Assembly: GCA_000004985.1 (NCBI GenBank) | Contig: GG738858.1 | From: Naegleria gruberi | Lineage: Eukaryota | Length of the DNA stretch: 64,000 bases | Reading direction: 5' to 3' (one strand) | In this document: positions 22,963 to 63,457 of the stretch, one piece after another | How positions within the stretch are numbered: the stretch's first letter is position 1 | How the letters are laid out: every line of letters begins with the position of its first letter | Notes under the pieces: generated by a model | What the model was told of the DNA's origin: nothing | Databases searched by the model: none | The model's input: only the letters and a program-made list of their open reading frames with translations | Translations under genes and position numbers: made by a program

Positions 22963-23067
22963 ATGTTCTTATCGAAGTTTACTGAGATAAAGTAGTGTTT
23001 CTTGAAAACAACAATTGAATAAACTAATAATAGAAAGTATGCTCAAAAAAATTGTCATACTATGGTC
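22963..23067 (+). repeat. Split direct repeat A1 of the retroelement (105 bp)
   Basis: Identical copy at 26999..27103. The gag ATG (23062) lies inside its 3' end. Confidence 0.85.
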
Positions 23068-26967: not shown

Positions 26968-27103
26968 TTTATTTATTGTTGGTTTTCTTTTAAGAAACAT
27001 GTTCTTATCGAAGTTTACTGAGATAAAGTAGTGTTTCTTGAAAACAACAATTGAATAAACTAATAATAGAAAGTATGCTCAAAAAAATTGTCATACTATG
27101 GTC
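26957..27103 (+). repeat. Internal B1 (26957..27000) and A2 (26999..27103) junction of the split direct repeats
   Basis: B1 equals B2 (27778..27821) and A2 equals A1. The B1/A2 abutment is the hallmark internal junction of Ngaro/PAT-like elements. Confidence 0.8.
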
Positions 27104-27777: not shown

Positions 27778-27821
27778 ATATCCATTAGTTTATTTATTGT
27801 TGGTTTTCTTTTAAGAAACAT
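27778..27821 (+). repeat. Split direct repeat B2 (element 3' terminus)
   Basis: A 44-bp copy identical to 26957..27000. Confidence 0.8.
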
Positions 27822-27878: not shown

Positions 27879-29813
27879 ATGCAAAGACCAAACATTTCAC
27901 AGGATTTAGAGTCTCACATTTCCAGCAGCACATCAACAGCTTCATTTTCCAACTTACCTTACGTTAATTCAGAGAAACATCTAATCAAGTCAAATGTCAA
28001 TGGCAAGTCAAGATGTAATTTACCTACAATTCTCTTACTATTATTCATCCTCACAAGTTTGGTGATGATTTTTTATTTGACGTCCAAGCGAGGAGTAAGA
28101 GGAGAAGCCAGAGTATTCCCTGTCACTTATCTAGATGTCGATTTCACAAATTCTGAAAATTTAAAACTCAACCGAGTGAGAGGTCTTTGTAAAATATTCT
28201 TATCAACCTATTATTTGTTTAATTATAATGAAAAATCACCTAATTATGTTCCACCAACAGTTATTGGTGCTGACGGTGCTCCTGAAGCAAAATATAGTAA
28301 GTTTGATGGTTGGCATTTAATTAGTGAAAATTGACATGTGAAATGTAAAGCTCATTGGAAGAAGATTGAGAGGACTTTTCAATTTTTATCGGGTGGAGAG
28401 TCTAACTATATTGATGATCATGATATTATTGTTTTCAGTGATGCAACAGATGTTTTATTCATCAATAATATTGAAAATGTCAAGAAAGTATACGAAACTT
28501 ACTATATCAAGGAAATTGCTAATATTGATTTGAAAGATAGTGAGAGAGATTGGCCTATTGTGTTTATTGCTGAAAAGAATAAGTGGCCACCAAATGATTT
28601 CATTCAAAATATGTTTACAGTAAGTGTTTCTAATAGAATTTACTAATTTTCTCGATTCATACTCTAGGAAGATTGTCATAATTATGTGGGGGTGGGTGGG
28701 TCGTGAAAAAAGGATGTCCATAATTACGTGGTCCAGAGTGGGTCAGAAAGTAGAGCAGAGCAAAAAACAAAAATTGGCAAAAGTAGAGCCGAAGGTTTAT
28801 TAGCCAAGAGTGAGACAGTGTTCAAAGTATCAATTATCACTTGTTCTGCTAGCAACAAGTACTTCTGGGTTCTTGATTGTTTGTGTACCAACAACTTTGG
28901 GCAGGCATTCATCTAGATTGTTATGGTTGAATGTGCTATGGCTGATGTGGAAGGAAGCAAAGGGAGAACTCTCCTCCTGGTACTGATGAAGGTTGGTAGT
29001 TAGCAGGGTGATGAAATCATGAGTAATTGTTGTTTGTTGTTTTTTTTTGTTGAATATAACGGTCAGAACATTCAACTTTCAGCGGTAACATGTTTGGTAG
29101 TGTGAAAAAACTCACATGCAGTGGCCAGGATTTGTTGGGACGATCTTACAGTGAGGTTGGGTGGGTCAAAAAGTGAGGGTCGTAATGACAATCTTCCCTA
29201 TTAGAAAACACCTGAGGAGGAGAATATGGTCGAAAAATACTACTATGACATTAATGGCTATAGAGTTAAGAGAAATTGTGCATCAGCAAATGATAGAATT
29301 TATTTAAATAGTGGACTTTACGTTGGAAGAAAACGTGATATTAGAAAGGCACTTTCCATTGGATTGAATGTGAAAAGAGGTGAACCAAAGGAAAGAATTG
29401 AAGATCAAGCGCTATTCCAATACATTTATGCCACCAATAAGTATCCAATTCTTATGGATTGTGAAAAGAAAATGTTTTACAGTCCATTCTCAGCTTGTGA
29501 TACAATTGTTAGTGAGGAAGAGAAGAAGTGGTCGTGTTCTATTCGTGATGGTCAGGAGGAGACACCAGATAGTGTTGTCTACGTTCATTCAAATGGTGGA
29601 TTTTGTTATTCACTTTGTAATTGTTTCACTTCAATGAAACAAAAAGGAATGTTCAAGAATTTAATGGAACAGTATCAGGACAAGTTGAGTTTCAAGTCGT
29701 ATGATATTAATTCTAGAAAAGTGAGAAGTGTTTTGATGAAATATGCTTGTGGACACTTTGTTGATGAAGATTTCGCTTTGGATTCATGTAATACTCAACC
29801 TCCTCCTGCTTAG
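27879..29813 (+). CDS. Type-II membrane protein (signal-anchor TILLLLFILTSLVMIFYL), possible Golgi glycosyltransferase-like protein; 3-exon model
   Basis: Exon 1 is 27879..28296 (TAT A|gtaagt). The 54-nt intron is 28297..28350 (..taaag) and removes the in-frame TGA at 28332. Exon 2 is 28351..28619 (ACA|gtaagt, phase 0). Intron 2 is 28620..29204 and contains a ~530-bp MITE. Its original sequence would be ~55 nt and ends ctattag. Exon 3 is 29205..29813 (KTPEEENMVEKYYYD...). Exon 3 linkage is inferred from phase compatibility only. Confidence 0.4.
28667..29198. mobile_element. Non-autonomous TIR element (MITE, ~530 bp) with 13-14-bp TIRs GGAAGATTGTCAT.../...ATGACAATCTTCC flanked by TA; Tc1/mariner-Stowaway-like
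   Basis: Left end reads cTA|GGAAGATTGTCATAA and right end reads TAATGACAATCTTCC(C)|TAtta. Interior GC content is higher than the flanks. There is no long ORF. It lies inside the putative second intron of the 27879..29813 gene. Confidence 0.4.
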
Positions 29814-29840
29814 ATAAAAAGATTTGTTTGATAAAAGGAA

Positions 29841-29928
29841 GGGTGGTACGTGGATCGAACACGTGACCATCGGATGTCTCCTGCAATTAACTTTGCAATC
29901 CGGTGCTCTACCGCTGAGCTAACCGCCC
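29841..29928 (-). tRNA. tRNA-Cys(GCA) with a 17-nt intron at the canonical 37/38 position
   Basis: Minus-strand read: GGGCGGT-TA-GCTC-AGCGGTA-GAGC-A-CCGGA-TTGCAA[AGTTAATTGCAGGAGAC]A-TCCGA-TGGTC-ACGTG-TTCGATC-CACGT-ACCACCC. T-arm is perfect. Acceptor has 6 of 7 pairs. Anticodon is GCA. The intron contains TTGCA, self-complementary to the anticodon loop. ORF 30154..30351 and others nearby are spurious. Confidence 0.7.
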
Positions 29929-30242: not shown

Positions 30243-30315
30243 CTCCCCCTGGTGGGCTCGAACCACCGACCTGCAGATTAACAGTCTGACGCTCTACCGA
30301 CTGAGCTAAGGGGGA
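30243..30315 (-). tRNA. tRNA-Asn(GUU)
   Basis: Minus-strand read: TCCCCCT-TA-GCTC-AGTCGGTA-GAGC-G-TCAGA-CTGTTAA-TCTGC-AGGTC-GGTGG-TTCGAGC-CCACC-AGGGGGA-G. Canonical cloverleaf with anticodon GTT. No intron. Confidence 0.85.
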
Positions 30316-44802: not shown

Positions 44803-46329
44803 ATGTTTCAACATCTCGACAATGACTCCCTCGCAAATATTATGAATTTTCTCAGCCTTTTTGATGTGATTGAAAACTTGGCGTTGGTAAATTCGCGTCT
44901 TTTCCGTTTGATGAACTTGGAAAATGATCATCAAGGAACCATTACGAATTTATTGATGGAAAGAATTTTATTCTCGGAAGAGGAGATGGATCTGATTGGA
45001 ATGTTGAATAGATTGGAGAGGGCTGTGTGTTTTGAGTCTCTTCTGAGTGATTTGGAGAGGGAGGTTGTTGATTGTGGTGTTTTGAAGGAGATTTTTGAGA
45101 GGAATAAATATGAGGAGGTTTCAGTGAAGGAGTGTGTGAAGGGGATGGATTGGAAGAGAGTCGTTAGGATTGAGAAGTATGATGAATTGAGGATTTGTGT
45201 GGAGCTGGGGCGGAGATTAGGCTATTTGGATGCATGTTGGTTGTATGAAAATCAAAAAATAGGGAGGAAACCTTTCCAATTGTTTTATAGTCATGAAATG
45301 GATGGTTACTCTGAAGGTAATCTATTATTTCTAGATTTTCTGCAACTGGTTAAGGCATATGAATTGTCAATGGATAAGATTTACAAAATTCACCTCTACT
45401 TTGTCAATAATCAACTAAAAATCTCGAAAATAGTTTCTCGAGCAAGAGAGGGACAAAAATTAACTGAAAAGGAAATTTTAGTGAAGGATTACAAGTATTT
45501 ATATGAAAAAATGTTGGGATATAGTGGAATTGTTGGTACACTGGACTTGAAAGTGCTCTCTTACCAAGAAGGTGTAGAAAACAATGTTACTATTTCAACT
45601 GTGGATATTCAATCTGCAAAAGTTTATAGAAGCACTTGCTGTACTCTCAGAAATGGTGAGACTAATGTTGGTCAATTATTCGCAGTCAACCAATTTTTCG
45701 ATGCCATTTCAAGACCAACTAAATGTGGAGATTTGAGACTTTCCCAAAAAGGAGACATCACACTGTGGACTATTTCAAGACAGGAAATAAGGAAAATGAT
45801 TAGACCTTTTGTAATTTATCCAGTGTTGTATTTTCCATTAGCAATATATTCACATTTCAAGTTTGTGAATTATGACTTTGGATGGAATGAGACACAAGTT
45901 CATCCATATCTCCACTTTTTCGATTGTTTGGTTTTCACTTTTTTGAGCTTGGTTGGAATAGATAACTTGACAATTAGAATTCGTAGGATTCCCAGAAATG
46001 ATGCCATAATTATGTTGTTGTGCACTTTAGGAATATTTCTTGTCAAGTTAACTATTTGTATATTTGGAACGAGCCACCCACTTCGATCCTTCATTAACAC
46101 CTTTTCATTCTCTGCACCATTCATCCTCTCCAGTGTACCATTCATTTATGGATTAAATTTATATCCAAAGGCATTGTTCTGGTATTGGAGATCAACCAAT
46201 TGGTTCTATAATAATATAGTTGTGAAAAAAACAGGTGGATTTTTGAGGAAATGTGTGGATTGGATTACAAATTATTATTCCTTAAATGGTGTTCAGCATG
46301 ACAGTTCAACTCGTTGCGCAATTAATTAG
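44803..46329 (+). CDS. Hypothetical protein with an N-terminal F-box-like segment and C-terminal multi-pass hydrophobic region
   Basis: ATG at 44803. LANIMNFLSLFDVIENLALVNSRLFRLM resembles an F-box. Several hydrophobic helices occupy the last 180 aa. Confidence 0.45.
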   Translation: MFQHLDNDSLANIMNFLSLFDVIENLALVNSRLFRLMNLENDHQGTITNLLMERILFSEEEMDLIGMLNRLERAVCFESLLSDLEREVVDCGVLKEIFERNKYEEVSVKECVKGMDWKRVVRIEKYDELRICVELGRRLGYLDACWLYENQKIGRKPFQLFYSHEMDGYSEGNLLFLDFLQLVKAYELSMDKIYKIHLYFVNNQLKISKIVSRAREGQKLTEKEILVKDYKYLYEKMLGYSGIVGTLDLKVLSYQEGVENNVTISTVDIQSAKVYRSTCCTLRNGETNVGQLFAVNQFFDAISRPTKCGDLRLSQKGDITLWTISRQEIRKMIRPFVIYPVLYFPLAIYSHFKFVNYDFGWNETQVHPYLHFFDCLVFTFLSLVGIDNLTIRIRRIPRNDAIIMLLCTLGIFLVKLTICIFGTSHPLRSFINTFSFSAPFILSSVPFIYGLNLYPKALFWYWRSTNWFYNNIVVKKTGGFLRKCVDWITNYYSLNGVQHDSSTRCAIN

Positions 46330-46690
46330 GAAATTTACAAATATTGAAATTACAGTTTACAAAAAAGTTAGTGAGTGAAGGTAGTTTCGATCTACCACCT
46401 TAGAATCTACCAAGCTTCCTATGTTCTCCCATTTAAACTATTCACCCACAAATTCTTTTCTCTACATAATTCAAGCTTTATCCTAAAGTTCATCTATAAA
46501 TAGAGATGGTTTTGGTTTTGGATTAAATTTATAAAAAGAATGACAAGATAAATTGTTTGATATGAGAATATTGATATTTATTTGGTTACCAATAAGAGGT
46601 ATTGAATATTACCCAAAAAAAACAAAGTTTACAAAAAATGATAATATTTCAATACTATTGATTGTAATTAATATTGAAACGAATGATGAT

Positions 46691-46849
46691 TTACCAACCA
46701 GCTGGTTTACTACAAGTTGGACATTTCAAACCAACTTTTCCAGATGGAGAACTTTTACATCCAGGGCAAACTCTGTGGGAACAACCATTCTTACAAGAAA
46801 TTGAAGATAAAGTTGAAGCATTGAAACTACACCACTCACACTTGGCCAT
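46691..46849 (-). CDS. 52-aa Cys-rich zinc-ribbon-like micro-protein, copy A (MAKCEWCSFNASTLSSISCKNGCSHRVCPGCKSSPSGKVGLKCPTCSKPAGW)
   Basis: It is below the 60-aa cutoff of the ORF track. It was found as the reverse-complement near-duplicate of 47352..47510. ATG at 46849..46847 and TAA at 46693..46691. Eight Cys in CxxC..C..CxxxCxxC..CxxC spacing. Confidence 0.45.
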   Translation of the reverse strand: MAKCEWCSFNASTLSSISCKNGCSHRVCPGCKSSPSGKVGLKCPTCSKPAGW

Positions 46850-47351
46850 TTCGAAAATATTTCTTTTGATTTTTGGGTTAATAACAAAACAGTTGAATTG
46901 TTTTTTTGTTTGGTGGAAAATGAAATCATGCAGTTGGTTGGCCTATTTATTGTATTTGTTGTTGGAAAGTTATTGGAAACAATCTCTTTGGAACAGGTCT
47001 GAACTTGGATTTTGAGCCACATTTCAATGAAAACACGTGTTGCAAGAAAAGTTCATGACCATCAATTTAATGTTCAGTATTTGTTCATGGTCACGACTGG
47101 ATCTTCAAGATCATAAAAGTTTCGAATAAATCCATGTTGTGTCCATTCTTGATAGTTAACCAATCAATGCAAGAGGGCTATTTAAATTGTAAAACGAAAA
47201 TAAATGGTGAAATAATACTATTCACTCACTGACTCCCTGAAACAATTCTAATATCTCATCATGCAAAATATCTTTCGAATAAATTGAGTTGATCCACAAC
47301 CAATTTCTCAAAACAAATCAAAAAAACAATTCTAAACAATCATTAATCAAA

Positions 47352-47510
47352 ATGGCCAAGTGTGACTGGTGCAGTTTCAATGCTTCAACTTTATCTTCAA
47401 TCTCTTGTAAGAATGGTTGTTCTCATAGAGTTTGTCCTGGATGTAAAAGTTCTCCATCTGGAAAAGTTGGTTTGAAATGCCCAACTTGTAGTAAACCTGC
47501 TGGTTGGTAA
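47352..47510 (+). CDS. 52-aa Cys-rich zinc-ribbon-like micro-protein, copy B (MAKCDWCSF...KPAGW)
   Basis: Internal ATG of track ORF 47289..47510. It is ~93% nt identical to copy A on the opposite strand, with one aa difference (D/E). Confidence 0.45.
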   Translation: MAKCDWCSFNASTLSSISCKNGCSHRVCPGCKSSPSGKVGLKCPTCSKPAGW

Positions 47511-47663
47511 AATTGACCAACTCAAGTTGGAATCTTTCGTTTTTTTGCTAAAGTTTCTTTTTTTTTTCGATATTTCAGATTCCCTTATTCTAATAGTTTA
47601 CATTCCAATAAATGCAACAAATTTAAACTAATGTTTCCATAATAAGAATTATATTTAATGAAT

Positions 47664-48611
47664 TTAGTATACGCATTCTTTCAATGATTTTCCATATTTA
47701 CGCAATTGATTAAAGATTCTAATCAATTGTTCACAATCTTCAATCTTTGGCAATTGATTTCCAGTTTCAAAAGTTGCCGTAGTTTTCTTGGCATCACCAA
47801 CCTCCTCACTGTCCATAATCTTTCCAAAATATTCTCTACTCTGCATCAATTTATCTTCCCATTTGTCTGCGAATGAGCTCACTTCTTTACTTTTTAGGCA
47901 AGAGTTCATGGCCACAGGGATAGCCACACTGCATCCAACTGCCATGGCCACACCAACTCCAGCCACAATAGGAACTCCCACAAAAGCACCAATAAATGTA
48001 GTAATTGCAGCAATTCCCAATCCAACTAACCCAACCAAGGACACAATTCCCAAAATAATGCATGCCCAAAAGTATTTCTTTGCTTTGGCTCTCAGAATAT
48101 TCTCAATATGATTCACAGAAGATTCAAGAGTGCTTCTATACCGTGGATGTGTAATCAGTTTCAAATGATCATGAATTACTGTCATTCTCTTCACATAGGA
48201 TTCCTGGTTGACTTGGTTGAAAATGTCCTTAAATAGCTCAACACCCATTTCACCAATTTCAATAAGGAAATTTCCATGTAACAATATAGCATAAATAGCT
48301 TCCCTAAATGATTCTCTTTCACTTTCTTTCAGAAACAAGTAACAATCCTTAATGCATTTACTCATTTCTTGCTCAGTCGATGAAAAATCTTGTTTTTCCA
48401 TTTCGTCTGCAATTTCTTTCAAATCTTTCTTGTCGTCGTTGTTGTCATTATGAATTGGCTTGTTCTCATTGCTCAGGTCTATATTTTGCCAGGTTTCAAT
48501 GTAGACGTAATCGTCCAAGATGTCAAAACAATCGACAATGTCAAGGCAAGTTTGTTGAGTTTCTTCTGGTTTCTGATTGGAACTATCTTTCTTTGTGTGC
48601 CGTTGACCCAT
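47664..48611 (-). CDS. Hypothetical 315-aa protein: MGQRHT N-myristoylation motif, helical domain, C-terminal Gly/Ala-rich (GxxxG glycine-zipper) TM hairpin
   Basis: The TM hairpin region reads ILGIVSLVGLVGLGIAAITTFIGAFVGVPIVAGVGVAMAVGCSVAIPV. It is a paralog of 49947..50894, with identical length. Confidence 0.55.
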   Translation of the reverse strand: MGQRHTKKDSSNQKPEETQQTCLDIVDCFDILDDYVYIETWQNIDLSNENKPIHNDNNDDKKDLKEIADEMEKQDFSSTEQEMSKCIKDCYLFLKESERESFREAIYAILLHGNFLIEIGEMGVELFKDIFNQVNQESYVKRMTVIHDHLKLITHPRYRSTLESSVNHIENILRAKAKKYFWACIILGIVSLVGLVGLGIAAITTFIGAFVGVPIVAGVGVAMAVGCSVAIPVAMNSCLKSKEVSSFADKWEDKLMQSREYFGKIMDSEEVGDAKKTTATFETGNQLPKIEDCEQLIRIFNQLRKYGKSLKECVY

Positions 48612-48968: not shown

Positions 48969-49904
48969 ATGAGTAAACGAAACAGACAAGATTTCGAATA
49001 TATTAAATTAATTACCAATTCGGAGGAAATATTCACGGAAGAGAAAGCAAAAGCTATGAAACTGCACCACCAACAACACGAAGATAATGACATATTTTCC
49101 GATGATATTTGCTTTGAAATAATTTCCATGCTTGATGATTCGTGGTTTATTCTAAATAATTGCACTTTAATTTCAAAACAATTCTGTCAGGTGATCAAGG
49201 AACGCTCTAAACTAGTTATTCAATTTAAAAAACCATTGACAGAGAGACGAGTTGAATTATTAAGGAAAAGTCAATTTATGAATTGTATTGTTAATGTTAA
49301 ATTTAATGAAATGTTGTTGGAATTGAGAGAAAATATCAAATTTATAAGTGAAATGAAACAATTAACATCACTTGATGTTTCTGACAATGAAATTGGAAAT
49401 GTAGGAGCTAAACATATAAGTGAAATGAAACAATTAACATCACTTAATATATGTAATAATCGAATTGGTGATGAAGGAGCTAAATTCATAAGCGAAATGC
49501 AACAATTAACATTACTTGATATTTCTGATAATCATATTGGTGATAAGGGAGTTAAATTTATAAGTGAAATGAAACAATTGACATCATTCAATATTTCTGA
49601 TGATCTAATTGGTAATGTAGGAGCCAAATCTATAAGTGAAATGCAACAATTAACATCACTTGATGTTTCTGATAATCATATTGGTGATAGTGGAGTAAAA
49701 TTCATCAGTGAAATGAAACAATTAACATCACTCAATATTGCTATCAATCGAGTTGGTGATGAAGGAGCCAAACTCATAAGTGAAATGAAACAATTAAGAT
49801 CACTTAATATTTCTGACAATGAACTTGGTGATGAAGGAGTCAAATTCATAAGTGAAATGAAACAATTAAGATCAAATTGTTTGGGTATTGTACAGCAGAA
49901 TTGA
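48969..49904 (+). CDS. F-box-like / RNI-type leucine-rich-repeat protein
   Basis: ATG at 48969. The N-terminus has an F-box-like motif (IFSDDICFEIISMLDDSWF). The LRR part consists of eight near-identical 24-aa repeats ISEMKQLTSL(D/N)(V/I)SDNxIGDxGAKF. Confidence 0.6.
   Translation: MSKRNRQDFEYIKLITNSEEIFTEEKAKAMKLHHQQHEDNDIFSDDICFEIISMLDDSWFILNNCTLISKQFCQVIKERSKLVIQFKKPLTERRVELLRKSQFMNCIVNVKFNEMLLELRENIKFISEMKQLTSLDVSDNEIGNVGAKHISEMKQLTSLNICNNRIGDEGAKFISEMQQLTLLDISDNHIGDKGVKFISEMKQLTSFNISDDLIGNVGAKSISEMQQLTSLDVSDNHIGDSGVKFISEMKQLTSLNIAINRVGDEGAKLISEMKQLRSLNISDNELGDEGVKFISEMKQLRSNCLGIVQQN
49345..49880 (+). repeat. 72-bp-period tandem coding repeat (about 7.5 units) inside the LRR gene
   Basis: Units such as aagtgaaatgaaacaattaacatcacttgatgtttctgacaatgaaattggaaatgtaggagctaaacatat are nearly identical to each other at the DNA level. 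Confidence 0.8.
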
Positions 49905-49946: not shown

Positions 49947-50894
49947 CTAAATGACACATTCTTTCAATGCTGTTCCATACTTGCTCAATTGATAAAAGAT
50001 ATTAATCAAGTGTTCACATTCTTCAATCTTTGGCAACTTGTTGGCATTTTCATAATCCTTGGTGGTCTTTTCAGCTCTGGTAAATTCTGAACTTTCCATT
50101 GCATTCTTAAAACATTGTTTGCTTTCCATCAATTTATCTTCCCAATTGCCTGCGAATGAACTGACTTCAGTGGCTTCCATGCAAGAGTTCATGACCACAG
50201 GAATGGCCACACTGCATCCAACTGCCATGACCACACCAACTCCAGCCACAATAGGAACACCCACAAAGGCACCAATCACTGTTGTAATTGCAGCAATTCC
50301 CAAACCAACCAAACCAACCATGGACACAACTCCCAAAATAATACTTGCCCAAAAGTATTTCTTTGCTTTGGCTCTCAGAATATTCTCCATATGTTTAATG
50401 GAAGTTTCAAGTTTAGTTAAATATTTGGCATTGTCAAAGTAATCTTCCCAAAACTTGTAAATTGCATTCATTCTCTTTTCATATGATCCTTGGTTGACTT
50501 GATTTAAAATATCAGTAAATAGTTCAACTCCCAATTTACCAACTTTAATAAGGTGATTGCCATGGAGAACGATATTTTCAATTGCCTTGTAAAATGGTTC
50601 TCTCTCACTTGGTTTTAGAAACAGATAACAATCTTGAACACATTTTTGGATTTCGTTTTGAGTTTCAAAAATGTCAGTTTTTTGCAATTCTTTGGAAATT
50701 TCCTTCAAATCTTTCTTGTTTTCTTTCAATTCAATATTTTGCCAATAGTTTTCTATATAAACTCGATTCTCAATCATGTCAAAACAATCAACAATGTCAA
50801 TACTCGTTGAAGAATCTGTTTCTTGAGCAAGTTGCTTGAGATTGAGAGATTGGTGAAGGCCTGTGTCCTTCTTTGTGGTTTGGCGTTGACCCAT
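49947..50894 (-). CDS. Paralog of 47664..48611 (MGQRQT N-myristoylation motif plus a glycine-zipper TM hairpin)
   Basis: Same 315-aa length and collinear similarity throughout. The TM block is nearly identical to its paralog (GLVGLGIAAITTVIGAFVGVPIVAGVGVVMAVGCSVAIPV). Confidence 0.55.
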   Translation of the reverse strand: MGQRQTTKKDTGLHQSLNLKQLAQETDSSTSIDIVDCFDMIENRVYIENYWQNIELKENKKDLKEISKELQKTDIFETQNEIQKCVQDCYLFLKPSEREPFYKAIENIVLHGNHLIKVGKLGVELFTDILNQVNQGSYEKRMNAIYKFWEDYFDNAKYLTKLETSIKHMENILRAKAKKYFWASIILGVVSMVGLVGLGIAAITTVIGAFVGVPIVAGVGVVMAVGCSVAIPVVMNSCMEATEVSSFAGNWEDKLMESKQCFKNAMESSEFTRAEKTTKDYENANKLPKIEECEHLINIFYQLSKYGTALKECVI

Positions 50895-51337: not shown

Positions 51338-53574
51338 TTAAAGTATTTTCTTTTCGAGTTGTTTGAGAATATTTTCGAGTAACTCAACAATTTTTGTGGT
51401 TCTGTTTTTGCACTTGGTTTCATCGAAATCTGAGAGATTAGTCAATTTCTTGACTTCGTTGTTGATATTCAATGGTTCCTTATTCAAGTATTTCAATCTG
51501 TTTTCATCTGTGGTATCCTTTGTGAATGATTTACCACATAGAGTAAAGTTACCAATTTGGAGATAGCAATTATCCATCTTCTTAGCCAATAATGGTTTGA
51601 TATTGCATAACTTGAGATTACGAGGATATTGCAAGTCGAAATTAGATGCATTCGGATCAGAAAGGAAGTCTTCAATGATTGGTAAAACAGTTGAGAAAAT
51701 CTTTTTAAGCTCATTACTTTGTTTCTTCTTTGATGGGGCAGTGCTGTCATTATTGGCTAATCTAATGATCTTCTTGCTCCATTGTGAATAATTGGATTCC
51801 TCACTGTCATCACTTGCCTTTTTGCCTCCCTTTTTCTTGCTCTTTGTCTTGGTCAATATGGTTGTGAGTTCCTTAAAATCAACAACTTTGTTGTTCAAAA
51901 GATTACTGATCTCAGCCATCATGTAAGAGAACTTGACCTTGGCAAAGTCACACAAGCAAACTTGGAGTACGTGATTGTGCCAAATTGCAATTAATTGCAA
52001 TACATCTGCTTCTTCAACCTTGGAACTGACATTATAGGTGAGAAAGTGTTGGCCATGTTCCTTGCAATGTGCAATAGCAATAAGAGTTGCTAGGACTATA
52101 TCTGAGGCCACTTTTTGTGCCTTTGGGAGGTAATTTTCAGCAATGTGGTGTGTTCTGCTGATCATCTTGTTAATAAGGTGATTCTTCTCATTATTAGTGG
52201 AGAATACAGGACGATTTGCTGAACTCTTTGATTGATGACCAATGAAAATAGGAGTCATGTAATTGTTCATGAAAGTTTCACCAAGATTTTCAATATTGAC
52301 AGTTGTCTTCATGTGGGAGGCAATTTGGTCAAGAAGTTTCAAATATTCTCTATTGCTAACATTCACATTCTTTGTTGGGTGTAGCAATTGATGAATGTTT
52401 TCAAGAATATTTGAGAAATCTTCGCCAACTTCTTGATACATGTGATTCCAAGAATCAACCATTTCTTGATTCTTTTGGTGATTGTGGCAACCAAATAATC
52501 TTCCAAAATCAAGCTTGAGTTTGTCCATTGGTGACAAATCCTTTCCTCTCAAATTCAAAGTACCAAAGATTGCTAGTTCATTAGCATGTTCTGGAACTGT
52601 AATGGTAACAACAATACAATTGTGACTCAAGAAGTGAATGAAATCAACCATTTCTTCTTGTTTCTTGAAAAGCTTTTTGATTTTAAGGATGGAATGCAAG
52701 AAGTTTTTGGCACAATTCATGGCAGAAGTGGAAGTAATCTCCTTTGCTTCTTCGAGCTTGGTGATTATTTCATCAACCTTGCTCTTCTTAAAGTCACCCT
52801 CGTCCATACTGGCCTTCTTTAAAATGTTAGCAAATCCCTTCTCTTCGACAATGTACTTTTTAAAGAATGTCTTTTCCTTTCCTGCTACACCTTCTTCATC
52901 ATTGCAAACCTCAATTCTTGCTTGACCTTTCAGAGTTCCCTTGTGAATCTTCAAGTAAACTTTGCTAATTGTCTCAAAATTTTCTTCATACTTTTTCTTA
53001 TTGATACATTCTCTGAGGGCAGAGTAAAGAATGGAGAGAGAGGTCAATCTTTGTTGACCATCTATTACTTGTTGTCTGTTACCTGCCTTTAGGACAATGG
53101 AGCCAATAAAGTAGCTGCTCTCTGGTTCATTCTTGTTATACTCATTGTAGACATCATCAAGAAGGTCCATAATGTTGTCGATCTCCCAAGCATAAGGACG
53201 TTGGTATTCAGGAATAGAATAGCACAATTCAAAAAGATTGTCAATTGCTCTATTGTTGGTGGTCAACTCCCAAGCTCTTCTTTCTGAGGCAACTATCTTT
53301 GGAGGAACAGGTGGACTGAATGTGAGTGGAGAATCTGTTGAAAATGGAAGAGAGGTATCACTCTTAGAGCTTGATGGAGTTGCTGGTTGTGAAGAAGAGG
53401 AAGGAGTACTGGCGATAATGGTTTGTTCCTTCTTGGTCTTCTTCTTGTCTTTCTTTGGGGTAATGTCAGAGCAGTCTCTGGTGTTTTTCTCTTCTTGTCT
53501 ACCCCCTTTGACCACTCGGGAACCCCTGCTTCACATTCAACTTCATGAACTATTTCACTATTGAAACAGTTCAT
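51338..53574 (-). CDS. DUF262 (GmrSD-N / ParB-like nuclease fold) domain protein with a low-complexity N-region, 2 exons
   Basis: The DUF262 motifs are IPEYQRPYAW ... IDGQQRLTSL and a downstream LNLRGKDL block. The main frame has no ATG before the domain; the track start is GTG. Exon 1 is 53574..53503 (ATG, MNCFNSEIVHEVECEAGVPEWSKG). The 50-nt intron is 53502..53453 (gtagac...ccaaag). Exon 2 is 53452..51338, beginning KDKKKTKKEQ. Phase 0 on both sides. Confidence 0.6.
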
Positions 53575-56455: not shown

Positions 56456-59400
56456 TCAAACTTCTAATAAACTGTTAAAATCAATTGCCCTTCGGAATAT
56501 CTTGGAACCACTTTCAACAATTCTATTATTCTTATTCATTCGTTTTAGGAATTCAGTATTGTATCTTAATGAATAGTGAGCGTAACAAAGTGCTTCAATA
56601 TTGATATCCATTGCCTTTTCAATAAAATCTTCATCGGAAATAATTTCATAGGATGCAAGTTTAAGTGAAGTAACATCACTTTGTACAGCTTTCAATACTA
56701 TTTCAGGATCGTTTCTCATATCAAATGATGCATAACAGAAAGAATTAAACGATTTCCCCTGACCAGAAGCATACATTACACACTCCTTATCCCCAAGGAA
56801 TTTGTTGGATGCATACTGAAGTGCTTCTTCATGGTTTTGAACACATTTCAGGACGACATTTCTGTTATATGCAAACTTATGAGGCACATACTGTAAAACC
56901 TTTCCGTTAACTCCAGCACATTCTAAAATAAACTCTTCCTCATGCTGTAACTCTTCACTGGCAAACAGGAATGCAATAGCATCAGATTTGATAGCTTTTA
57001 ACATAATTTCTCTATCATTTTTGAATTCATGTTTCAACTCGTTAGACAAGTACATAATTGATCGACCATTAAGTTCCAGTGATTTTAAAGCAATTTCTCT
57101 GTCTTCCCTTAATGTAATTGGTATAAAAAGTATATCAAATTGCTTAGGTTCAATTTCTAAAATAAAGGTCCTATCTAGTCTAAGTCTATTCGAAACATAC
57201 ATAAGATTCATCATCCTAGCATTAACAGCTAAAAGGGCAAATTGTCTATCATCTCTAAAAGTATAATCAAATTCATTAAGAGACTTAATACTTAATGCTA
57301 TGGCAGCCATTTCCTTATTGAGAGGAAATGGGATGTTGAGATGTGGCGGTAACCATTTTCTTAACGCTTCCAACACTTCTCCATCACTTTTCATTTCTCC
57401 AGAGGCATAGCGATAACAGCTTGCTGAATATTTTAATCCTGTTAAAATTAATTCCTTGTCATTTTGCAAATCTTCTGATAGGTAGTTACATCCATGACGA
57501 ATTGCATTTAGAGCAATTTCTCTATCATTTCGCAAATATTTTGGAATATATTGAATCAAATAACCATTAATCCTAGTTAACTTCCTAATAAAATCAATAT
57601 TGTTCCTTAATCTTTCAGACACGTACTCGAAAGATGAAGCATTCTCTGAGAATGCAATTGCTTGCACTATTTCCTCCTCATCTCTGTATTCTTCTGGAAC
57701 ATATTTCAGAGGATGAGTATCATATCTGCAAGCTTCATAAACTATTTCTCTATCTAATTCTGATTCATTGATATTTCTTAAGCTCAATCCGTTTCGTACT
57801 GCAACGATTAACAATTCTCTGTCTTGTTGGAGAGAATGACTGGCGTATTTCAAGTTATTTCCATCTAATTGGACAGCCTCTAATACTATGTCTCTGTCTT
57901 GTTTGTATTCTTGTGGTATTTCTTCAATACTTCCAATTCTTCTTACGTATTCTAATATTAAATCTCTATCTTCCTTCAGACTATATCCCAAAAAGTCAGA
58001 TATATTTGACATTGAATTTCTAATTGCTTTTACAACAAAGTCTCTCGAATTTTTCCAAGATTCAGGAGCATACTCAAAGTAGCATCCGTCTCTACCTATT
58101 AAAAACTCTAGTATCTCCTTATCTGTTTTTAATTCTTCTGATGCATAATTATAATTACCAGTATCATATAAAAGTGCTTCCTGTAACAATGACTTATCAT
58201 TTTGCAATTCCGCTGATGCAAACTTTAGAGCTCCGTAATGTTCTTTTATCGCCAACCTGATTATTTCTCGGTCATTTCTTAACTCGTCGTTCAACGATTC
58301 TAAAATTTTACGATCTTGTAATATATAGTCCAATACTAGTTGTCTACTGTTTTTTAGTTCGCCCTTGCAATGTTCTAAGCATACAGGATCTATTCTAATA
58401 ATTCTCAACTGTCTTTCCTCATTAAGAGAATTGAAATAATCTTTAGAAGTCCACATTGCTGAACTATACTGACATTGAATATCAATTAGTTCATCAACAA
58501 AATCACTATGATTAACTAGAGACGAACCACCATAATCAAGAAAGCTTAATGAATTACCTGCTCCTGAAATGCATTCTAGAACGAATTCACGGTCATGAAT
58601 TAATTCTCGAGCGATTCTACTGGAGAATGCGCTAGAATTAACAGAAGAACCAAGCAATACAAGTTCCTTCACAAAACTTCTATCACTACAGAAGTAACCA
58701 TGATCCACATAATACAAAGCCATTCCATTAGATTTTACAGCCTCCATAACAATCTCTTTGTCTTTCTTCAGTTCTTTTGAAACATCCTTCAAACTGTCTC
58801 CTTTCATTTTTACAATTTGTAAAACAAACTCTCTGTCTGATCTTAATTTTTCAGACGCATACGAAAATGAAAACCCTGAATTTTTAGCAGCTAGTAAAAT
58901 AACCTCTTTGTCATTGGAAAATGTTGGAGCATGCTGGAGAACACACGAATATTTAGAATTCTTGATAGCTTCCATCACTATTTCTCTATCTTTTAAATGT
59001 TCTGGAACATACTCGATAACCAAACCATCTTGTTTCACTGCTTCCAACACAATATCTCTAGAATTTTTCAATTGGGATGAAGCAAATTTTAAACATTTTG
59101 GTTGTTGTTTGATAGCTAATTTCATTAATTCATCATCATTATGAAATTCTGGGAGATGTTCAAATAAAATTTCCTCATCATAATATAAGTTTGATTTCAA
59201 TTTTAACACTTTCAAGATAAATTCTCTTTGGCTTTTCAATTTCTTACCAACAAATTTAATTGCCGAATAATGTTCTCGAAGTGCTACCAAAGCAACAGTT
59301 TCATCATTTTGCAAATCCTCTGATGCATATTCTAATAATTGTCCTTCAATTTTAAGAGTTTTTAAAAAGGCTAATTTGCAATCATTGTCAGGAAATGGAT

Positions 59401-59626
59401 GATCTTGAATATATTCACAAGCTGGAATGTTCTTTCTCTTCTTAAATTGTTGTACATGTTCATAAATCTTGTTGTTTTTAGAAACCCGTTCCTTGCAGAC
59501 TGCCGAAAAATGGTTTGCAAGTAAAATAAAACTCAGAGTTTCGGATGCTGAATTGTTAAATACGACCTGATGGTCATTGGAAGGCAAAAAATTTATCAGC
59601 AAATCTGAGAATGAATCTTTCACCAT
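56456..59626 (-). CDS. 1056-aa protein built of ~21 tandem ~48-aa repeats (DUF4116-like: D(R/K)E(I/F)VL.AV(K/R).(N/D)G.AL.YAS.EL(K/R).D)
   Basis: ATG at 59626. Example repeat units: DREIVLEAVKQDGLVIEYVPEHLKDREIVMEAIKNSKYS... and DREFVLQIVKMKGDSLKDVSKELKKDKEIVMEAVKSNGMALYYV... Confidence 0.55.
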   Translation of the reverse strand: MVKDSFSDLLINFLPSNDHQVVFNNSASETLSFILLANHFSAVCKERVSKNNKIYEHVQQFKKRKNIPACEYIQDHPFPDNDCKLAFLKTLKIEGQLLEYASEDLQNDETVALVALREHYSAIKFVGKKLKSQREFILKVLKLKSNLYYDEEILFEHLPEFHNDDELMKLAIKQQPKCLKFASSQLKNSRDIVLEAVKQDGLVIEYVPEHLKDREIVMEAIKNSKYSCVLQHAPTFSNDKEVILLAAKNSGFSFSYASEKLRSDREFVLQIVKMKGDSLKDVSKELKKDKEIVMEAVKSNGMALYYVDHGYFCSDRSFVKELVLLGSSVNSSAFSSRIARELIHDREFVLECISGAGNSLSFLDYGGSSLVNHSDFVDELIDIQCQYSSAMWTSKDYFNSLNEERQLRIIRIDPVCLEHCKGELKNSRQLVLDYILQDRKILESLNDELRNDREIIRLAIKEHYGALKFASAELQNDKSLLQEALLYDTGNYNYASEELKTDKEILEFLIGRDGCYFEYAPESWKNSRDFVVKAIRNSMSNISDFLGYSLKEDRDLILEYVRRIGSIEEIPQEYKQDRDIVLEAVQLDGNNLKYASHSLQQDRELLIVAVRNGLSLRNINESELDREIVYEACRYDTHPLKYVPEEYRDEEEIVQAIAFSENASSFEYVSERLRNNIDFIRKLTRINGYLIQYIPKYLRNDREIALNAIRHGCNYLSEDLQNDKELILTGLKYSASCYRYASGEMKSDGEVLEALRKWLPPHLNIPFPLNKEMAAIALSIKSLNEFDYTFRDDRQFALLAVNARMMNLMYVSNRLRLDRTFILEIEPKQFDILFIPITLREDREIALKSLELNGRSIMYLSNELKHEFKNDREIMLKAIKSDAIAFLFASEELQHEEEFILECAGVNGKVLQYVPHKFAYNRNVVLKCVQNHEEALQYASNKFLGDKECVMYASGQGKSFNSFCYASFDMRNDPEIVLKAVQSDVTSLKLASYEIISDEDFIEKAMDINIEALCYAHYSLRYNTEFLKRMNKNNRIVESGSKIFRRAIDFNSLLEV

Positions 59627-61327: not shown

Positions 61328-63457
61328 ATGTCGAAATCTCCTTCATCTGCTGTTAAACGTTTAATGAGAGATTGGAAGGAGGTTCTCGATTATCCATTAG
61401 AATATATCTATGCCCAACCATATCCAATTATGAATAATGGACAAGTAGAAGGATATGACATGTACAATTGGTTTGCAACATTGCTGGTTCCTGAGAGTGT
61501 TAGTACATGTACTGCAATTTCATTGACCTTAACTTTCAATGATAATTATCCAATTGTTCCACCAAATGTGAAATGTCTTTCCGTTATTGCCCATCCTCAT
61601 GTATTTGGTTCATATATTTGTTTAGACATGCTATCAGTTCCTTACAAGTATAACGGTACATGGGATTCCTGGTCTGCTTGGTCTTCCACATACTCTGTCT
61701 TATCCATTTTACTTCAATTAGAATCATTCTTGTTGGATAAGTATTTATATTCGAAATTTTCGGTTATCAAGAATGCAGAATATAAAGAACTCATTGAAAT
61801 GGGACATGATCCAAAGAATGCCAAGTTTTGGCCTTGGGCTCCGCATTGGGGCTCTATAAACTCTCAAATTCCAACAGCATTGAAATCATCTAATGAGATT
61901 GGAAACACTCAAATACTGAGAACAAAATCATCCAAAAGTAAGAAAATCAATATCAATGGTTCTTCCACTGCTACATTGGATGTTATTCAATCAGAGTGGA
62001 AAGGAGCTAGCAGCACATTGGAAGTTCTTTCCTCACTCAAATCAAACGATAATCAGTTCAAAGGAGAAAAATCGAGCAAAACGAATACTTCAATCGTTAT
62101 GATTAATGGAAAACCAATGGAAAAGATTACTAACACATTTGGTGAAGTAGTATTGACTCAAAATCAAGTAATGGAAAGTTTAAGACACAGAGCTAGCTTA
62201 TTGAATGTGAAACCTACTGAAATAGTTTCATATAAAGACTTGAAATTCAACCATCGATTGGATATTATGAAATTACCACCAGAAATTATCAGAGAAATAT
62301 TCAGTTATTTAGACTTTTCAGATTTGAAGAGTGGTGTGGAACAGACATGTCACTATTTGAAAGGTATTGCATCGAGCAAAGCAATCATTCAGGAACGGGA
62401 ATTAATATGTTTCCATTCAAAAGTCACATTTAAGGAAGATACTTTGGGAATTGGATTGAATGTTGAAGTTAAACCAAACGGTTACGTTGATAATATCAGT
62501 TCTCCAATGGACCTAGTCTCTAGAAATGCCTTTTACAATGATAATGCTGTAAAGAGTGCTTGGGGAATTGAAACCAAATTCTGGATTCCAATTTTTATCA
62601 ATAAGAAACATGCTGACTTTGAATTATTCAAATCAAGTGTGAAAGCCATTTACAATGCTCATCCTTCCATCACCAAGGAAAAGTCAAAGACTTACTCTGA
62701 TCTCTTCAATTCTCCAGAAGTCTACATTGATCTGATTTGCAAGATTATGAACTCAATGATAGTTGACCTCATGAAGGGTGAAGTACATGCCTCAATCAAG
62801 TATTTGCAAGGTTATTTGTATTTCCACAGATGGCTGCTATATATCTTGGAAATCTTCCCATTTACAACCAATGCCATTGAAAGAAAGGTCAAGAATTTCG
62901 TTAATCGCGAACATTTGAGAAACAAATATAATTGTCCAAACTTGGGTGAGTTCTTAATCTTGCTGTCAGTGCTGGGACCTGCAAATTTAAATTGGGATTC
63001 AGTCAAGTATGCCATTGTGGAAGAAACTTGCACTAGAAATGTGTTGTGGGCTGTTAAAATGTTTCCAGAATTGGCAAATCTTTCAATCGAGCAACCTAAA
63101 CGAATTGAAAAGACTTGGAAGGCAAATATGGTTTCTTGCAAATTGCTAATGTTCCACGTCTTTTTCTTAAAGACAGTAATTGAGAAGGAGCACGCAGGAA
63201 GATCTTTGGATGAAGTTGCCAGATTATATGATTTGAATTTTGGATTATCACCTGAAACTCAAGATGGACAAGATTTGGAAGAGTTGGTACAGGTTGCCAT
63301 TTTCAAGAATAATAATGCACAGGACTTTGAAGAATTCTTGGAATATGTGGGGTTGGATGAGCAGCTGAATAGTCGAGAAAAGATATTGACCTTTTTGGAA
63401 TATTGTGTGAAAACCTCTGAACAGAGAAGATACCACAAAGTTCCTCCAAATAAATAA
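61328..63457 (+). CDS. Ubiquitin-conjugating E2 (UBC fold, HPH-x-GxIC active site) fused to an F-box and a ~400-aa C-terminal region
   Basis: ATG at 61328. The N-terminal UBC fold has VKRLMRDWKE, IAHPHVFGSYICLDML (active-site Cys) and W-rich helices. The F-box-like motif is LDIMKLPPEIIREIFSYLDFSDLKSGVEQTCHYLKGIA at residues ~310-350. Confidence 0.6.
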   Translation: MSKSPSSAVKRLMRDWKEVLDYPLEYIYAQPYPIMNNGQVEGYDMYNWFATLLVPESVSTCTAISLTLTFNDNYPIVPPNVKCLSVIAHPHVFGSYICLDMLSVPYKYNGTWDSWSAWSSTYSVLSILLQLESFLLDKYLYSKFSVIKNAEYKELIEMGHDPKNAKFWPWAPHWGSINSQIPTALKSSNEIGNTQILRTKSSKSKKININGSSTATLDVIQSEWKGASSTLEVLSSLKSNDNQFKGEKSSKTNTSIVMINGKPMEKITNTFGEVVLTQNQVMESLRHRASLLNVKPTEIVSYKDLKFNHRLDIMKLPPEIIREIFSYLDFSDLKSGVEQTCHYLKGIASSKAIIQERELICFHSKVTFKEDTLGIGLNVEVKPNGYVDNISSPMDLVSRNAFYNDNAVKSAWGIETKFWIPIFINKKHADFELFKSSVKAIYNAHPSITKEKSKTYSDLFNSPEVYIDLICKIMNSMIVDLMKGEVHASIKYLQGYLYFHRWLLYILEIFPFTTNAIERKVKNFVNREHLRNKYNCPNLGEFLILLSVLGPANLNWDSVKYAIVEETCTRNVLWAVKMFPELANLSIEQPKRIEKTWKANMVSCKLLMFHVFFLKTVIEKEHAGRSLDEVARLYDLNFGLSPETQDGQDLEELVQVAIFKNNNAQDFEEFLEYVGLDEQLNSREKILTFLEYCVKTSEQRRYHKVPPNK

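What the first reader, a model, noticed from the sequence alone, without database searches (positions are those of the whole stretch)
46691..47510. Head-to-head inverted duplicate of a 52-aa Cys-rich micro-protein gene, ~93% identical at the DNA level
Copy A (minus, 46691..46849) is missed by the ORF track because it is under 60 aa. It is the near-perfect reverse complement of copy B (plus, 47352..47510). The proteins differ by a single D/E. The few nucleotide differences I checked are synonymous. The flanking UTR-like sequence has diverged. This suggests purifying selection or gene conversion on a tiny eight-Cys zinc-ribbon or metallothionein-like protein. The pair is transcribed divergently from a shared ~500-bp region.
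Basis: seen in the sequence. Interest (0 to 1): 0.5.

Follow-up and report, generated by a model that had tools for sequence, protein, structure and literature searches.

The report
Duplicated unannotated zinc microprotein gene, Naegleria
Two head-to-head copies of a real but unannotated 52-amino-acid, probably zinc-binding protein gene sit in the Naegleria gruberi genome; selection and probably gene conversion keep their coding parts alike, which is a genuine small find but an ordinary kind of evolutionary pattern.

Summary
Two intact 52-codon ORFs (A 46691-46849 minus; B 47352-47510 plus) form a 165-nt inverted repeat with 95% identity and 502 nt between the two ATGs. The DNA is Naegleria gruberi nuclear DNA. 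All 8 differences lie at third codon positions (7 synonymous, 1 E/D), giving dN/dS 0.03. Similarity ends within 5 nt of the ATG and 1 nt past the stop codon. One homologue exists among 5.8 billion protein clusters, on a Naegleria-clade metagenome contig (92% aa identity, dN/dS 0.07-0.10). This is therefore a real, unannotated, lineage-restricted microprotein gene in two copies. B's upstream region aligns with the homologue's and A's does not, yet the A and B coding sequences are closer to each other (dS 0.25) than to the homologue (0.44-0.49). The best reading is an old duplication with gene conversion limited to the CDS, which is a well-known pattern. It is not a transposon (no target-site duplication, no further copies in the window), not a hairpin-RNA locus (the differences follow codon periodicity) and not metallothionein-like. 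The Cys/His spacing fits the C3HC4 RING consensus and the weak top hits are RING fingers. No profile match is significant and AlphaFold2 fails, so the fold is unresolved. Transcription is untested.

The parts
46691..46849 (-). Copy A: 52-codon CDS plus stop (MAKCEWCSFNASTLSSISCKNGCSHRVCPGCKSSPSGKVGLKCPTCSKPAGW)
   Evidence: ORF list; codon comparison
47352..47510 (+). Copy B: 52-codon CDS plus stop; differs from A by E5D only. Its 5' region is shared with the metagenomic homologue, so it is probably the orthologous copy.
46690..46854 (.). Left arm of the inverted repeat (165 nt)
   Evidence: I1, 95% complementary; E = 3e-70
47347..47511 (.). Right arm of the inverted repeat (165 nt)
46850..47351 (.). 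502-nt spacer between the two ATGs, holding the 5' regions of both copies. Its central part is unique and has no Rfam match.
46895..46914 (-). Leader motif of copy A, ACCAAACAAAAAAACAATTC; the core CAAAAAAACAA lies at -59 from the ATG
   Evidence: I11. One search shows the 11-mer occurs only twice in the 64 kb, once in each leader.
47313..47332 (+). Leader motif of copy B, ACAAATCAAAAAAACAATTC; core at -33. The same core sits at -34 in homologue L001.
47188..47219 (+). Upstream block of copy B conserved with L001 (contains AATAAATGGTGAAATA at 47199-47214, about -150 from the ATG). Candidate core-promoter or TATA-like element; this function is inferred.
   Evidence: 88% over 33 nt; upB-upC alignment, z = 9.5
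46945..46951 (-). AATAAAT at -102 of copy A, a possible counterpart of the B/L001 element. It is only 7 nt, so the evidence is weak.
46615..46652 (-). 3'-flank T-rich motif of copy A (TTGAAATATTATCATTTTTTGTAAACTTTGTTTTTTTT). It is residually similar to the 3' flank of copy B.
   Evidence: z = 4.2
47527..47565 (+). 3'-flank T-rich motif of copy B (TTGGAATCTTTCGTTTTTTTGCTAAAGTTTCTTTTTTTT)

Best explanation
These are two functional copies of a gene that is missing from the annotated Naegleria gruberi proteome. It encodes a 52-residue cytosolic protein that is little more than a two-zinc Cys/His module; its spacing best fits a RING-type cross-brace, C4-x2-C7-x15-C23-x-H25-x2-C28-x2-C31-x11-C43-x2-C46. 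The copies lie head-to-head 502 nt apart, and each has its own short leader and promoter motifs. The duplication is old, because the flanks have decayed to short motifs. The coding sequences have stayed 95% identical through strong purifying selection on the protein, together with occasional gene conversion (or reciprocal exchange that flips the spacer) between the inverted arms. Such exchange can only start inside the still-homologous CDS. Shown here: the coding status, the purifying selection, the CDS-limited similarity, the restricted distribution and the conflict between CDS and flanks. Inferred: gene conversion, zinc binding, the cross-brace fold and any ubiquitin-related role (for example a minimal E2-binding or decoy module).
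For: Organism: a neighbouring HydF ORF is 100% identical to the NCBI N. gruberi protein, and the other neighbours are eukaryotic. Coding status: there are 8 differences in 159 nt, all at codon position 3 (P = 1.5e-4). Seven are synonymous and one is E/D. dN/dS is 0.033, and the binomial P for at most 1 nonsynonymous change in 8 is 1.2e-4. Against the only homologue, P0001/L001, 12 of 16 differences are at position 3 and dN/dS is 0.07-0.10. Similarity begins and ends at the CDS. Codon usage is typical for the window. Gene conversion: A-B dS is 0.25, while A-C is 0.44 and B-C is 0.49. B's upstream aligns with L001's over about 160 nt (z = 9.5), whereas A's upstream aligns with neither beyond a 17-20-nt motif (z about 3). 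Short leader and 3' motifs are shared by A and B at different distances from the CDS, as expected for an old whole-gene duplication with later indels. Among the 8 A/B differences, A matches L001 at 4 sites and B at 4 sites, interleaved along the CDS. Precedents for the same pattern exist: the C. elegans hsp16 inverted modules and col-12/col-13 (PMC3966223), and yeast inverted-repeat homogenisation (PMC9731477). Zinc/RING-like module: the C3HC4 regular expression matches, while only 4 of 200,000 composition-preserving shuffles do. The best PDB and Pfam alignments are to RING or FYVE-like cross-brace domains in the correct ligand register: TRIM32, BARD1, BRE1, MAT1, Slp4 and Pfam zf-RING_6.
Against: No transcript, ribosome-profiling or peptide evidence could be consulted. 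Only three sequences exist. The L001 contig ends 362 nt upstream of its gene, so it cannot show whether the other species also has a second copy; without that, a later duplication of the ORF alone cannot be excluded (the same caution is voiced in PMC3966223). Every RING-type hit is below threshold: E = 0.09-7, and Pfam bit scores of 12-13 against a cut-off of 35. The PROSITE-style core signature, recalled from memory, fails at K32. The C31-C43 segment is rich in Ser, Pro and Gly, where canonical RINGs have a helix. AlphaFold2 gives pLDDT 52-53 and Foldseek finds nothing. An equally simple reading of the spacing is two sequential four-Cys knuckle pairs (C4/C7/C19/C23 and C28/C31/C43/C46).
Confidence: 0.6

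Rival explanations
1. A relatively recent duplication copied only the ORF (within 5 nt at either end) in inverted orientation, next to pre-existing unrelated sequence. No gene conversion is needed: the flanks were never homologous, and purifying selection alone explains the CDS pattern.
For: Similarity ends almost exactly at the ATG and the stop codon. A and B are closer to each other than to L001. ORF-restricted duplications are documented in C. elegans, and the review warns against assuming conversion by default (PMC3966223).
Against: A duplication breakpoint within 5 nt of both CDS ends would be a coincidence. A and B share an oriented leader 11-mer that occurs nowhere else in the 64 kb, and a gapped T-rich 3' motif; both lie outside the CDS at shifted distances, which suggests decayed flank homology. 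A new copy without a promoter would have had to acquire the same leader motif. A-B dS is already 0.25, so the event would not be very recent.
Confidence: 0.2
2. The protein is a tandem of two sequential four-Cys zinc knuckle or zinc-ribbon modules, not a RING-like cross-brace. It would then act as a small nucleic-acid-binding or protein-binding zinc finger unrelated to ubiquitin.
For: The spacing is internally symmetric: C-x2-C-x11-C-x3-C, then x4, then C-x2-C-x11-C-x2-C. The CPxC knuckles are typical of rubredoxin-type zinc ribbons (from established knowledge). The zinc-ribbon ribosomal protein eL37 appears among the weak PDB hits at E = 1.1. The AlphaFold2 models show only one beta-hairpin, between C7 and C19.
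Against: Most of the full-length sub-threshold alignments are to cross-brace domains, and they use H25 in the RING register. H25 is conserved in all three sequences. None of this evidence is significant.
Confidence: 0.35
3. The inverted repeat is a foldback or MITE-like mobile element, or the terminal inverted repeats of a transposon, and the ORFs are incidental.
For: The geometry alone fits: 165-nt arms around a 492-nt core. The window does hold at least one mobile element elsewhere.
Against: There is no target-site duplication and no other copy in the 64 kb. The arms coincide exactly with intact ORFs, and all their differences are at codon position 3. The homologue in another species has only one arm on its contig, and shares its upstream region with copy B as ordinary orthologous DNA would.
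Confidence: 0.02
4. The locus functions at the RNA level. A read-through transcript folds into a 165-bp hairpin that is processed into small RNAs, and the duplex is what is conserved.
For: A transcript spanning 46680-47520 would fold at -372 kcal/mol (z = -30).
Against: A duplex constraint does not predict that all 8 mismatches fall on third codon positions with 7 synonymous, nor a dN/dS of 0.07-0.10 against a homologue that shows a single arm. There is no Rfam match. This fold is automatic for any inverted repeat.
Confidence: 0.03
5. The protein is a metallothionein-like metal buffer.
For: It is small, has eight Cys and has no detectable homologues.
Against: Cys makes up only 15% of residues. 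Every Cys sits in a CxxC or CxxxC pair, with no CC or CxC cluster. Two Trp, one Phe and one His are conserved. No Pfam metallothionein family matches, even at E <= 10.
Confidence: 0.04

Closest known systems
C3HC4 RING fingers (such as TRIM32, BARD1, BRE1, MAT1); alternatively C4C4 RING (CNOT4 type) or B-box-type cross-brace modules
   Same: It has eight zinc ligands with RING spacing. It also has the CxHx[V]CxxC core, a CPxC last knuckle and a hydrophobic residue (W6) before the second Cys. The best weak alignments in PDB and Pfam are to these domains in the correct register. The comparison with the CNOT4 and B-box spacing comes from memory and was not tested here.
   Different: No profile reaches significance. 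K32 replaces the hydrophobic residue after the sixth ligand, and the segment that forms the central helix in RINGs is Ser/Pro/Gly-rich. The whole protein is only the 52-aa module, with no substrate-binding part. The fold could not be confirmed.
Concerted evolution of adjacent inverted paralogues (C. elegans hsp16-1/hsp16-48 modules separated by 416 bp; col-12/col-13)
   Same: The ORFs are nearly identical, the flanks are fully diverged and the copies lie a few hundred bp apart, including in head-to-head orientation. Gene conversion is the favoured explanation there (PMC3966223).
   Different: The converted unit here is only 159 nt and the copies are 95% identical, not 99-100%. Any conversion has therefore been infrequent or is not recent. 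Population or multi-species data are lacking.
Yeast YNL018C/YNL034W 'flip/flop' inverted repeat
   Same: An inverted repeat made of paralogous genes is continually homogenised, and exchange between the arms can invert the intervening segment (PMC9731477).
   Different: The yeast repeat has 4-kb arms and a 24-kb invertible region holding 15 genes. Here the arms are 165 nt and the spacer is 492 nt, containing only the two 5' regions. An inversion polymorphism has not been examined.
Rubredoxin-type zinc ribbons and zinc-ribbon ribosomal proteins (eL37)
   Same: It has pairs of C(P)xC knuckles separated by 11 residues and is small. eL37 gives a weak hit at E = 1.1.
   Different: The similarity is not significant, and the conserved H25 and the eight-ligand layout fit a cross-brace at least as well.

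Membership tests
RING finger (C3HC4) | Eight ligands spaced C-x2-C-x(9-39)-C-x(1-3)-H-x(2-3)-C-x2-C-x(4-48)-C-x2-C | tested here: met
   The regular expression matches residues 4-46. Only 4 of 200,000 composition-preserving shuffles match.
RING finger (C3HC4) | Significant match to a curated RING profile (Pfam gathering score) | tested here: not met
   The best Pfam match is zf-RING_6 at 12-13 bits against a cut-off of 35, E = 0.09-0.18. There are no families at E <= 0.01. PDB RING hits have E = 0.44-7.
RING finger (C3HC4) | Core signature C-x-H-x-[LIVMFY]-C-x2-C-[LIVMYA] (PROSITE-style, recalled from memory) | tested here: not met
   CSHRVCPGCK fails at the last position, where K32 is found.
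RING finger (C3HC4) | Cross-brace fold with interleaved zinc ligation | tested here: inconclusive
   AlphaFold2 gives pLDDT 52.4 with the 3-sequence alignment and 53.3 with a single sequence. Foldseek against the PDB finds 0 matches.
RING finger (C3HC4) | E2 binding or ubiquitin-ligase activity | not testable with these tools
   This needs biochemistry.
Metallothionein | Very high Cys content with CC or CxC clusters, and few or no aromatic residues or His | tested here: not met
   Cys is 8 of 52 residues (15%), found only in CxxC or CxxxC pairs. W6, F9, H25 and W52 are conserved. No metallothionein Pfam family matches at E <= 10.
Zinc ribbon | Two CxxC knuckles on beta-hairpins, about 10-20 residues apart | tested here: inconclusive
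   The spacing is compatible with two such units. There is no significant profile hit; eL37 gives E = 1.1. The model is too poor to judge.
Paralogues under concerted evolution (interlocus gene conversion) | Paralogues within a genome are more alike than either is to the orthologue | tested here: met
   A-B have 8 differences and dS 0.25. A-C and B-C have 16 differences each and dS 0.44-0.49.
Paralogues under concerted evolution (interlocus gene conversion) | The flanks indicate a duplication older than the CDS similarity suggests | tested here: met
   The B-L001 upstream alignment has z = 9.5. The A-B and A-L001 upstream alignments have z about 3 and consist only of a short motif. Residual motifs lie at shifted distances from the CDS.
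Paralogues under concerted evolution (interlocus gene conversion) | Both loci are present in the outgroup species | not testable with these tools
   L001 ends 362 nt upstream of its gene, and copy A would lie about 500 nt upstream. The syntenic N. lovaniensis locus loses synteny at window position ~44,020 and holds no copy.
Foldback/MITE transposon | Target-site duplication and multiple dispersed copies | tested here: not met
   The flanks GATGAT and ATTGAC do not match. There is no other copy in the window. The rest of the genome was not searchable.

The most novel reading that the evidence does not exclude
The gene encodes the smallest known stand-alone RING-type protein: a 52-residue, Naegleria-lineage-specific cross-brace module with no substrate-binding part. 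It would act as a free E2-binding or E3-decoy 'microprotein' regulator of ubiquitination. Dosage would be maintained by two copies, homogenised through exchange between the inverted arms. That exchange could also flip the 492-nt spacer and swap the two promoters.
Probability: 0.12. Interest if true: 0.55.

Novelty: new member of a known kind. Interest (0 to 1): 0.3.

Why it matters
This adds a conserved, selected and previously unannotated gene family to the reference genome of a model amoeboflagellate, and it shows how genes under 60 codons escape annotation. It is also a compact example (159-nt arms) of paralogues whose coding sequences and flanks tell different histories, which is useful as a test case for gene conversion in a lineage where recombination is little studied. 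If the protein proves to be a free-standing RING-like module, it would set a lower size limit for that fold and suggest a new type of small regulator. None of this overturns current understanding.

Tried and rejected
1. Homology searches. A word-indexed search of 5.8 billion protein clusters found one hit. A full HMMER profile search of 1.84 billion representatives found the same single hit. A back-translated scan of JGI metagenome contigs found only a chance MAKCEWC N-terminus in an unrelated ORF, L002. A scan of viral contigs found nothing.
2. Structure. AlphaFold2 gave pLDDT 52 with the 3-sequence alignment and 53 with a single sequence. Foldseek against the PDB returned nothing. The fold evidence is unusable.
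3. Retrieving the N. gruberi record and its gene calls. Exact-product look-ups failed for three window proteins and for the NCBI HydF protein. Absence from the annotation is therefore inferred from the protein searches.
4. Synteny. The N. lovaniensis HydF-Myb block is collinear with the window up to position ~44,020 and then diverges. No microprotein is present in L003 or L004.
5. Other readings of the repeat. The transposon, hairpin-RNA and metallothionein readings were rejected, as set out under the rival explanations. Rfam found nothing in 46000-48000.
6. Larger duplicated block. The neighbouring 315-aa paralogues are only 60% aa and 76% nt identical, and their arrangement is not symmetric with the microprotein pair. 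The repeat is therefore not part of a larger duplication.
7. Literature. No paper was found on Naegleria small ORFs or on this protein, and none on the metagenome project PRJEB11402. The held text of the 1988 Naegleria alpha-tubulin paper mentions gene conversion only in its reference list, so it is not used as evidence.
8. Possible third copy. A weak tblastn hit at 49031-49075 (E = 0.03) and a 32-nt, 81% repeat (I2) lie antisense within the LRR gene. I treat them as chance.

Full report
**Observation.** ORF A (46691-46849, minus) and ORF B (47352-47510, plus) each encode 52 residues. The repeat finder reports them as one inverted repeat: arms 46690-46854 and 47347-47511, 165 nt, 95% complementary, 492 nt apart. 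blastn within the window gives E = 3e-70. An ungapped comparison shows 8 differences in 159 nt, of which 7 are synonymous and one is E5D. Identity collapses about 5 nt upstream of the ATG and 1 nt after the TAA. There is no third copy in the 64 kb.

**Organism and context.** The window is eukaryotic. It holds a G-alpha subunit, a gelsolin-repeat protein, an inward-rectifier K channel, the HydF hydrogenase maturase, a three-repeat Myb, F-box/LRR proteins, a 25-repeat DUF4116 protein and an E2/F-box fusion, at about 33% GC. The HydF ORF is 100% identical to the NCBI Naegleria gruberi protein on a 782-kb scaffold; N. lovaniensis is 79% identical and Willaertia 67%. The bacterial-style tools in this kit (promoter and terminator scans, table 11) therefore do not apply. 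The N. lovaniensis locus is collinear (HydF, Metallophos, Myb and a small gene) up to window position ~44,020, and then the similarity ends. The microprotein pair lies in the non-syntenic part, among fast-evolving multigene families (LRR proteins and a pair of 315-aa paralogues). No copy is seen in the N. lovaniensis stretch that was fetched.

**Is it a gene?** The evidence says yes.
- All 8 A/B differences fall on third codon positions (P = 1.5e-4). Nei-Gojobori estimates give dS 0.249, dN 0.008 and dN/dS 0.033. The probability of at most one replacement among 8 changes under neutrality is 1.2e-4.
- The protein is absent from the annotated proteomes in the databases. A word-indexed search of 5.8 billion clusters and a full HMMER profile search of 1.84 billion representatives both return a single relative, P0001.
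- P0001 is 52 aa and 92% identical. It lies on a 5.9-kb ENA metagenome contig, L001, with 35% GC. The neighbouring gene on that contig is about 40% identical to G8-domain proteins of N. lovaniensis and N. fowleri. L001 therefore comes from a different Naegleria-clade organism.
- Against this homologue, 12 of 16 differences are at position 3 and dN/dS is 0.07-0.10.
- The start codon, the stop codon and all nine Cys/His residues are conserved. Codon usage is typical of the window.
- No Rfam family matches the locus.

**How the two copies relate.** The coding sequences group A with B: they have 8 differences and dS 0.25. Each differs from L001 at 16 sites, with dS 0.44-0.49. At the 8 A/B-variable sites, A matches L001 four times and B four times, interleaved along the CDS.

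The flanks give a different picture.
- B's upstream region aligns with L001's over about 160 nt (z = 9.5). This includes a block around AATAAATGGTGAAATA at about -150.
- A's upstream region aligns with neither B's nor L001's, apart from a 17-20-nt A-rich motif (z about 3).
- That motif's core, CAAAAAAACAA, occurs only twice in the 64 kb. Both occurrences are in the sense-strand leader of a copy, at -59 for A and -33 for B, and the core is also at -34 in L001.
- The 3' flanks of A and B share a gapped T-rich stretch of about 40 nt at different offsets from the stop codon (z = 4.2).

If A had been copied from B after the split from the L001 lineage with its flanks included, those flanks should be more alike than the B and L001 flanks are. 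They are far less alike. I therefore favour an old whole-gene duplication whose flanks have decayed to short functional motifs. The CDS, kept similar by selection, would have been homogenised now and then by gene conversion or by reciprocal exchange between the inverted arms.

This pattern and this reasoning are well established for adjacent inverted paralogues, for example the C. elegans hsp16 modules 416 bp apart and col-12/col-13. The same review cautions that an ORF-only duplication can mimic the pattern (PMC3966223). Homogenised inverted gene repeats that flip the intervening segment are known in yeast (PMC9731477). The test that would settle the matter is whether the other species also has both loci. 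It cannot be run here, because L001 ends 362 nt upstream of its gene, short of where a copy A would lie.

**What the protein is.** No Pfam family matches at E <= 0.01. The ligand spacing C4-x2-C7-x15-C23-x-H25-x2-C28-x2-C31-x11-C43-x2-C46 satisfies the C3HC4 RING consensus, which only 4 of 200,000 composition-preserving shuffles do. It also has the typical CxHxVCxxC core, a CPxC last knuckle and a hydrophobic residue before the second Cys.

At relaxed thresholds, the best PDB and Pfam alignments are mostly to RING or other cross-brace domains in the correct register:
- TRIM32, E = 0.44
- BARD1, E = 1.1-7
- BRE1, E = 2.1-2.6
- MAT1, E = 4.8
- the Slp4 FYVE-like finger, E = 0.9
- Pfam zf-RING_6, E = 0.09

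. None of these is significant. The PROSITE-style core signature, recalled from memory, fails at K32. The C31-C43 segment is Ser/Pro/Gly-rich, where RINGs have a helix.

Using C19 in place of H25 gives an all-Cys layout, C-x2-C-x11-C-x3-C-x4-C-x2-C-x11-C-x2-C. From memory this resembles CNOT4-type C4C4 RINGs. It can equally be read as two sequential four-Cys knuckle pairs. AlphaFold2 gave pLDDT 52-53 in both runs, and Foldseek found nothing, so the topology is open.

A metallothionein is unlikely. Cys is only 15% of residues, there are no CC or CxC clusters, conserved Trp, Phe and His are present, and no metallothionein family matches.

My working model is a two-zinc structural module, more likely cross-brace than sequential. 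With no other domain, it would have to act by binding a partner, for example an E2 enzyme. That last step is inference only.

**Rivals.**
- A foldback or MITE element is excluded. There is no target-site duplication, there are no extra copies, the arm divergence follows codon periodicity, and the homologue shares its upstream region with copy B as ordinary orthologous DNA would.
- A hairpin-RNA locus is not supported. A read-through transcript would fold into a 165-bp stem, but that is automatic for any inverted repeat and does not explain the substitutions being at third positions and largely synonymous.
- An ORF-only recent duplication remains possible, at about 0.2.

**Verdict.** This is a genuine, previously unannotated and lineage-restricted microprotein gene in two head-to-head copies. 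It is under strong purifying selection, with probable gene conversion limited to the CDS. It is a new family but of familiar kinds: a small zinc-binding protein, and inverted paralogues evolving in concert. Expression, zinc binding and fold remain to be shown. Interest is modest.

Noticed in passing
window 22963-27103: Two perfect 105-nt direct repeats (22963-23067 and 26999-27103, 4036 nt apart) bracket overlapping long ORFs (23062-24189, 23906-26062, 24232-26967). The last ORF has a weak Phage_integrase (tyrosine recombinase) hit. This is probably a recently active tyrosine-recombinase mobile element (DIRS- or Crypton-like). A further perfect 44-nt repeat lies at 26957-27000 and 27778-27821.
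   Followed up: partly
window 28984-29086; L001 5503-5593: A non-coding block of about 100 nt, with stops in all frames and containing TGATGA and GTGATGA boxes, is 79% identical between N. gruberi and the unrelated metagenomic Naegleria-clade contig. It is single-copy in the window and has no Rfam match. It may be an uncatalogued small RNA or a regulatory element.
   Followed up: partly
window 47664-48611 (-) and 49947-50894 (-): Two 315-aa paralogues (60% aa, 76% nt identity) have a Gly/Ala/Val-rich hydrophobic segment and no significant Pfam family. They flank an F-box-less RNI-type LRR gene (48969-49904), immediately downstream of microprotein copy B.
   Followed up: partly
window ~44020 onward (at least to 54000): Collinearity with N. 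lovaniensis scaffold PYSW02000035 (HydF, Metallophos, Myb, small gene) ends at ~44,020. The next 10 kb or more, including the microprotein pair, has no counterpart in the N. lovaniensis stretch that was fetched.
   Followed up: partly
window 51338-53515 (-): A 725-aa ORF has a strong GmrSD_N (DUF262) domain hit (E = 4e-32). This domain is best known from bacterial type IV restriction and defence proteins, but here it sits in a eukaryotic nuclear genome.
   Followed up: no
window 61328-63457 (+): A single 709-aa ORF combines a ubiquitin-conjugating (UQ_con) domain with an F-box-like domain, which is an unusual E2/F-box fusion.
   Followed up: no
window 56456-59626 (-): A 1056-aa protein is made almost entirely of about 25 DUF4116 repeats (E = 3e-185).
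   Followed up: no
window 21322-21440 (-), 29840-29928 (-), 30243-30315 (-): A dispersed 5S rRNA gene and two tRNA genes are present. One tRNA is 89 nt long and was missed by ARAGORN, so it may contain an intron. The other is tRNA-Asn(GTT).
   Followed up: no
window 49031-49075 (-): A weak tblastn match of the microprotein N-terminus (CWWCSFIAFAFSSVN, E = 0.03) and a 32-nt, 81% inverted match to copy B (47367-47398 versus 49038-49069) lie antisense inside the LRR gene. This is most likely chance, though a decayed third copy is not excluded.
   Followed up: no
window 46640-46680 (-) and 47517-47547 (+): Each copy has a short hairpin followed by T-runs just after its stop codon. The two hairpins differ in sequence: A has TTCAATATT...AGTATTGAA and B has CCAACTCAAGTTGG. 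The folding z-scores are unremarkable (-2.0 and -0.4). Any relevance to 3'-end formation in Naegleria is unknown.
   Followed up: partly
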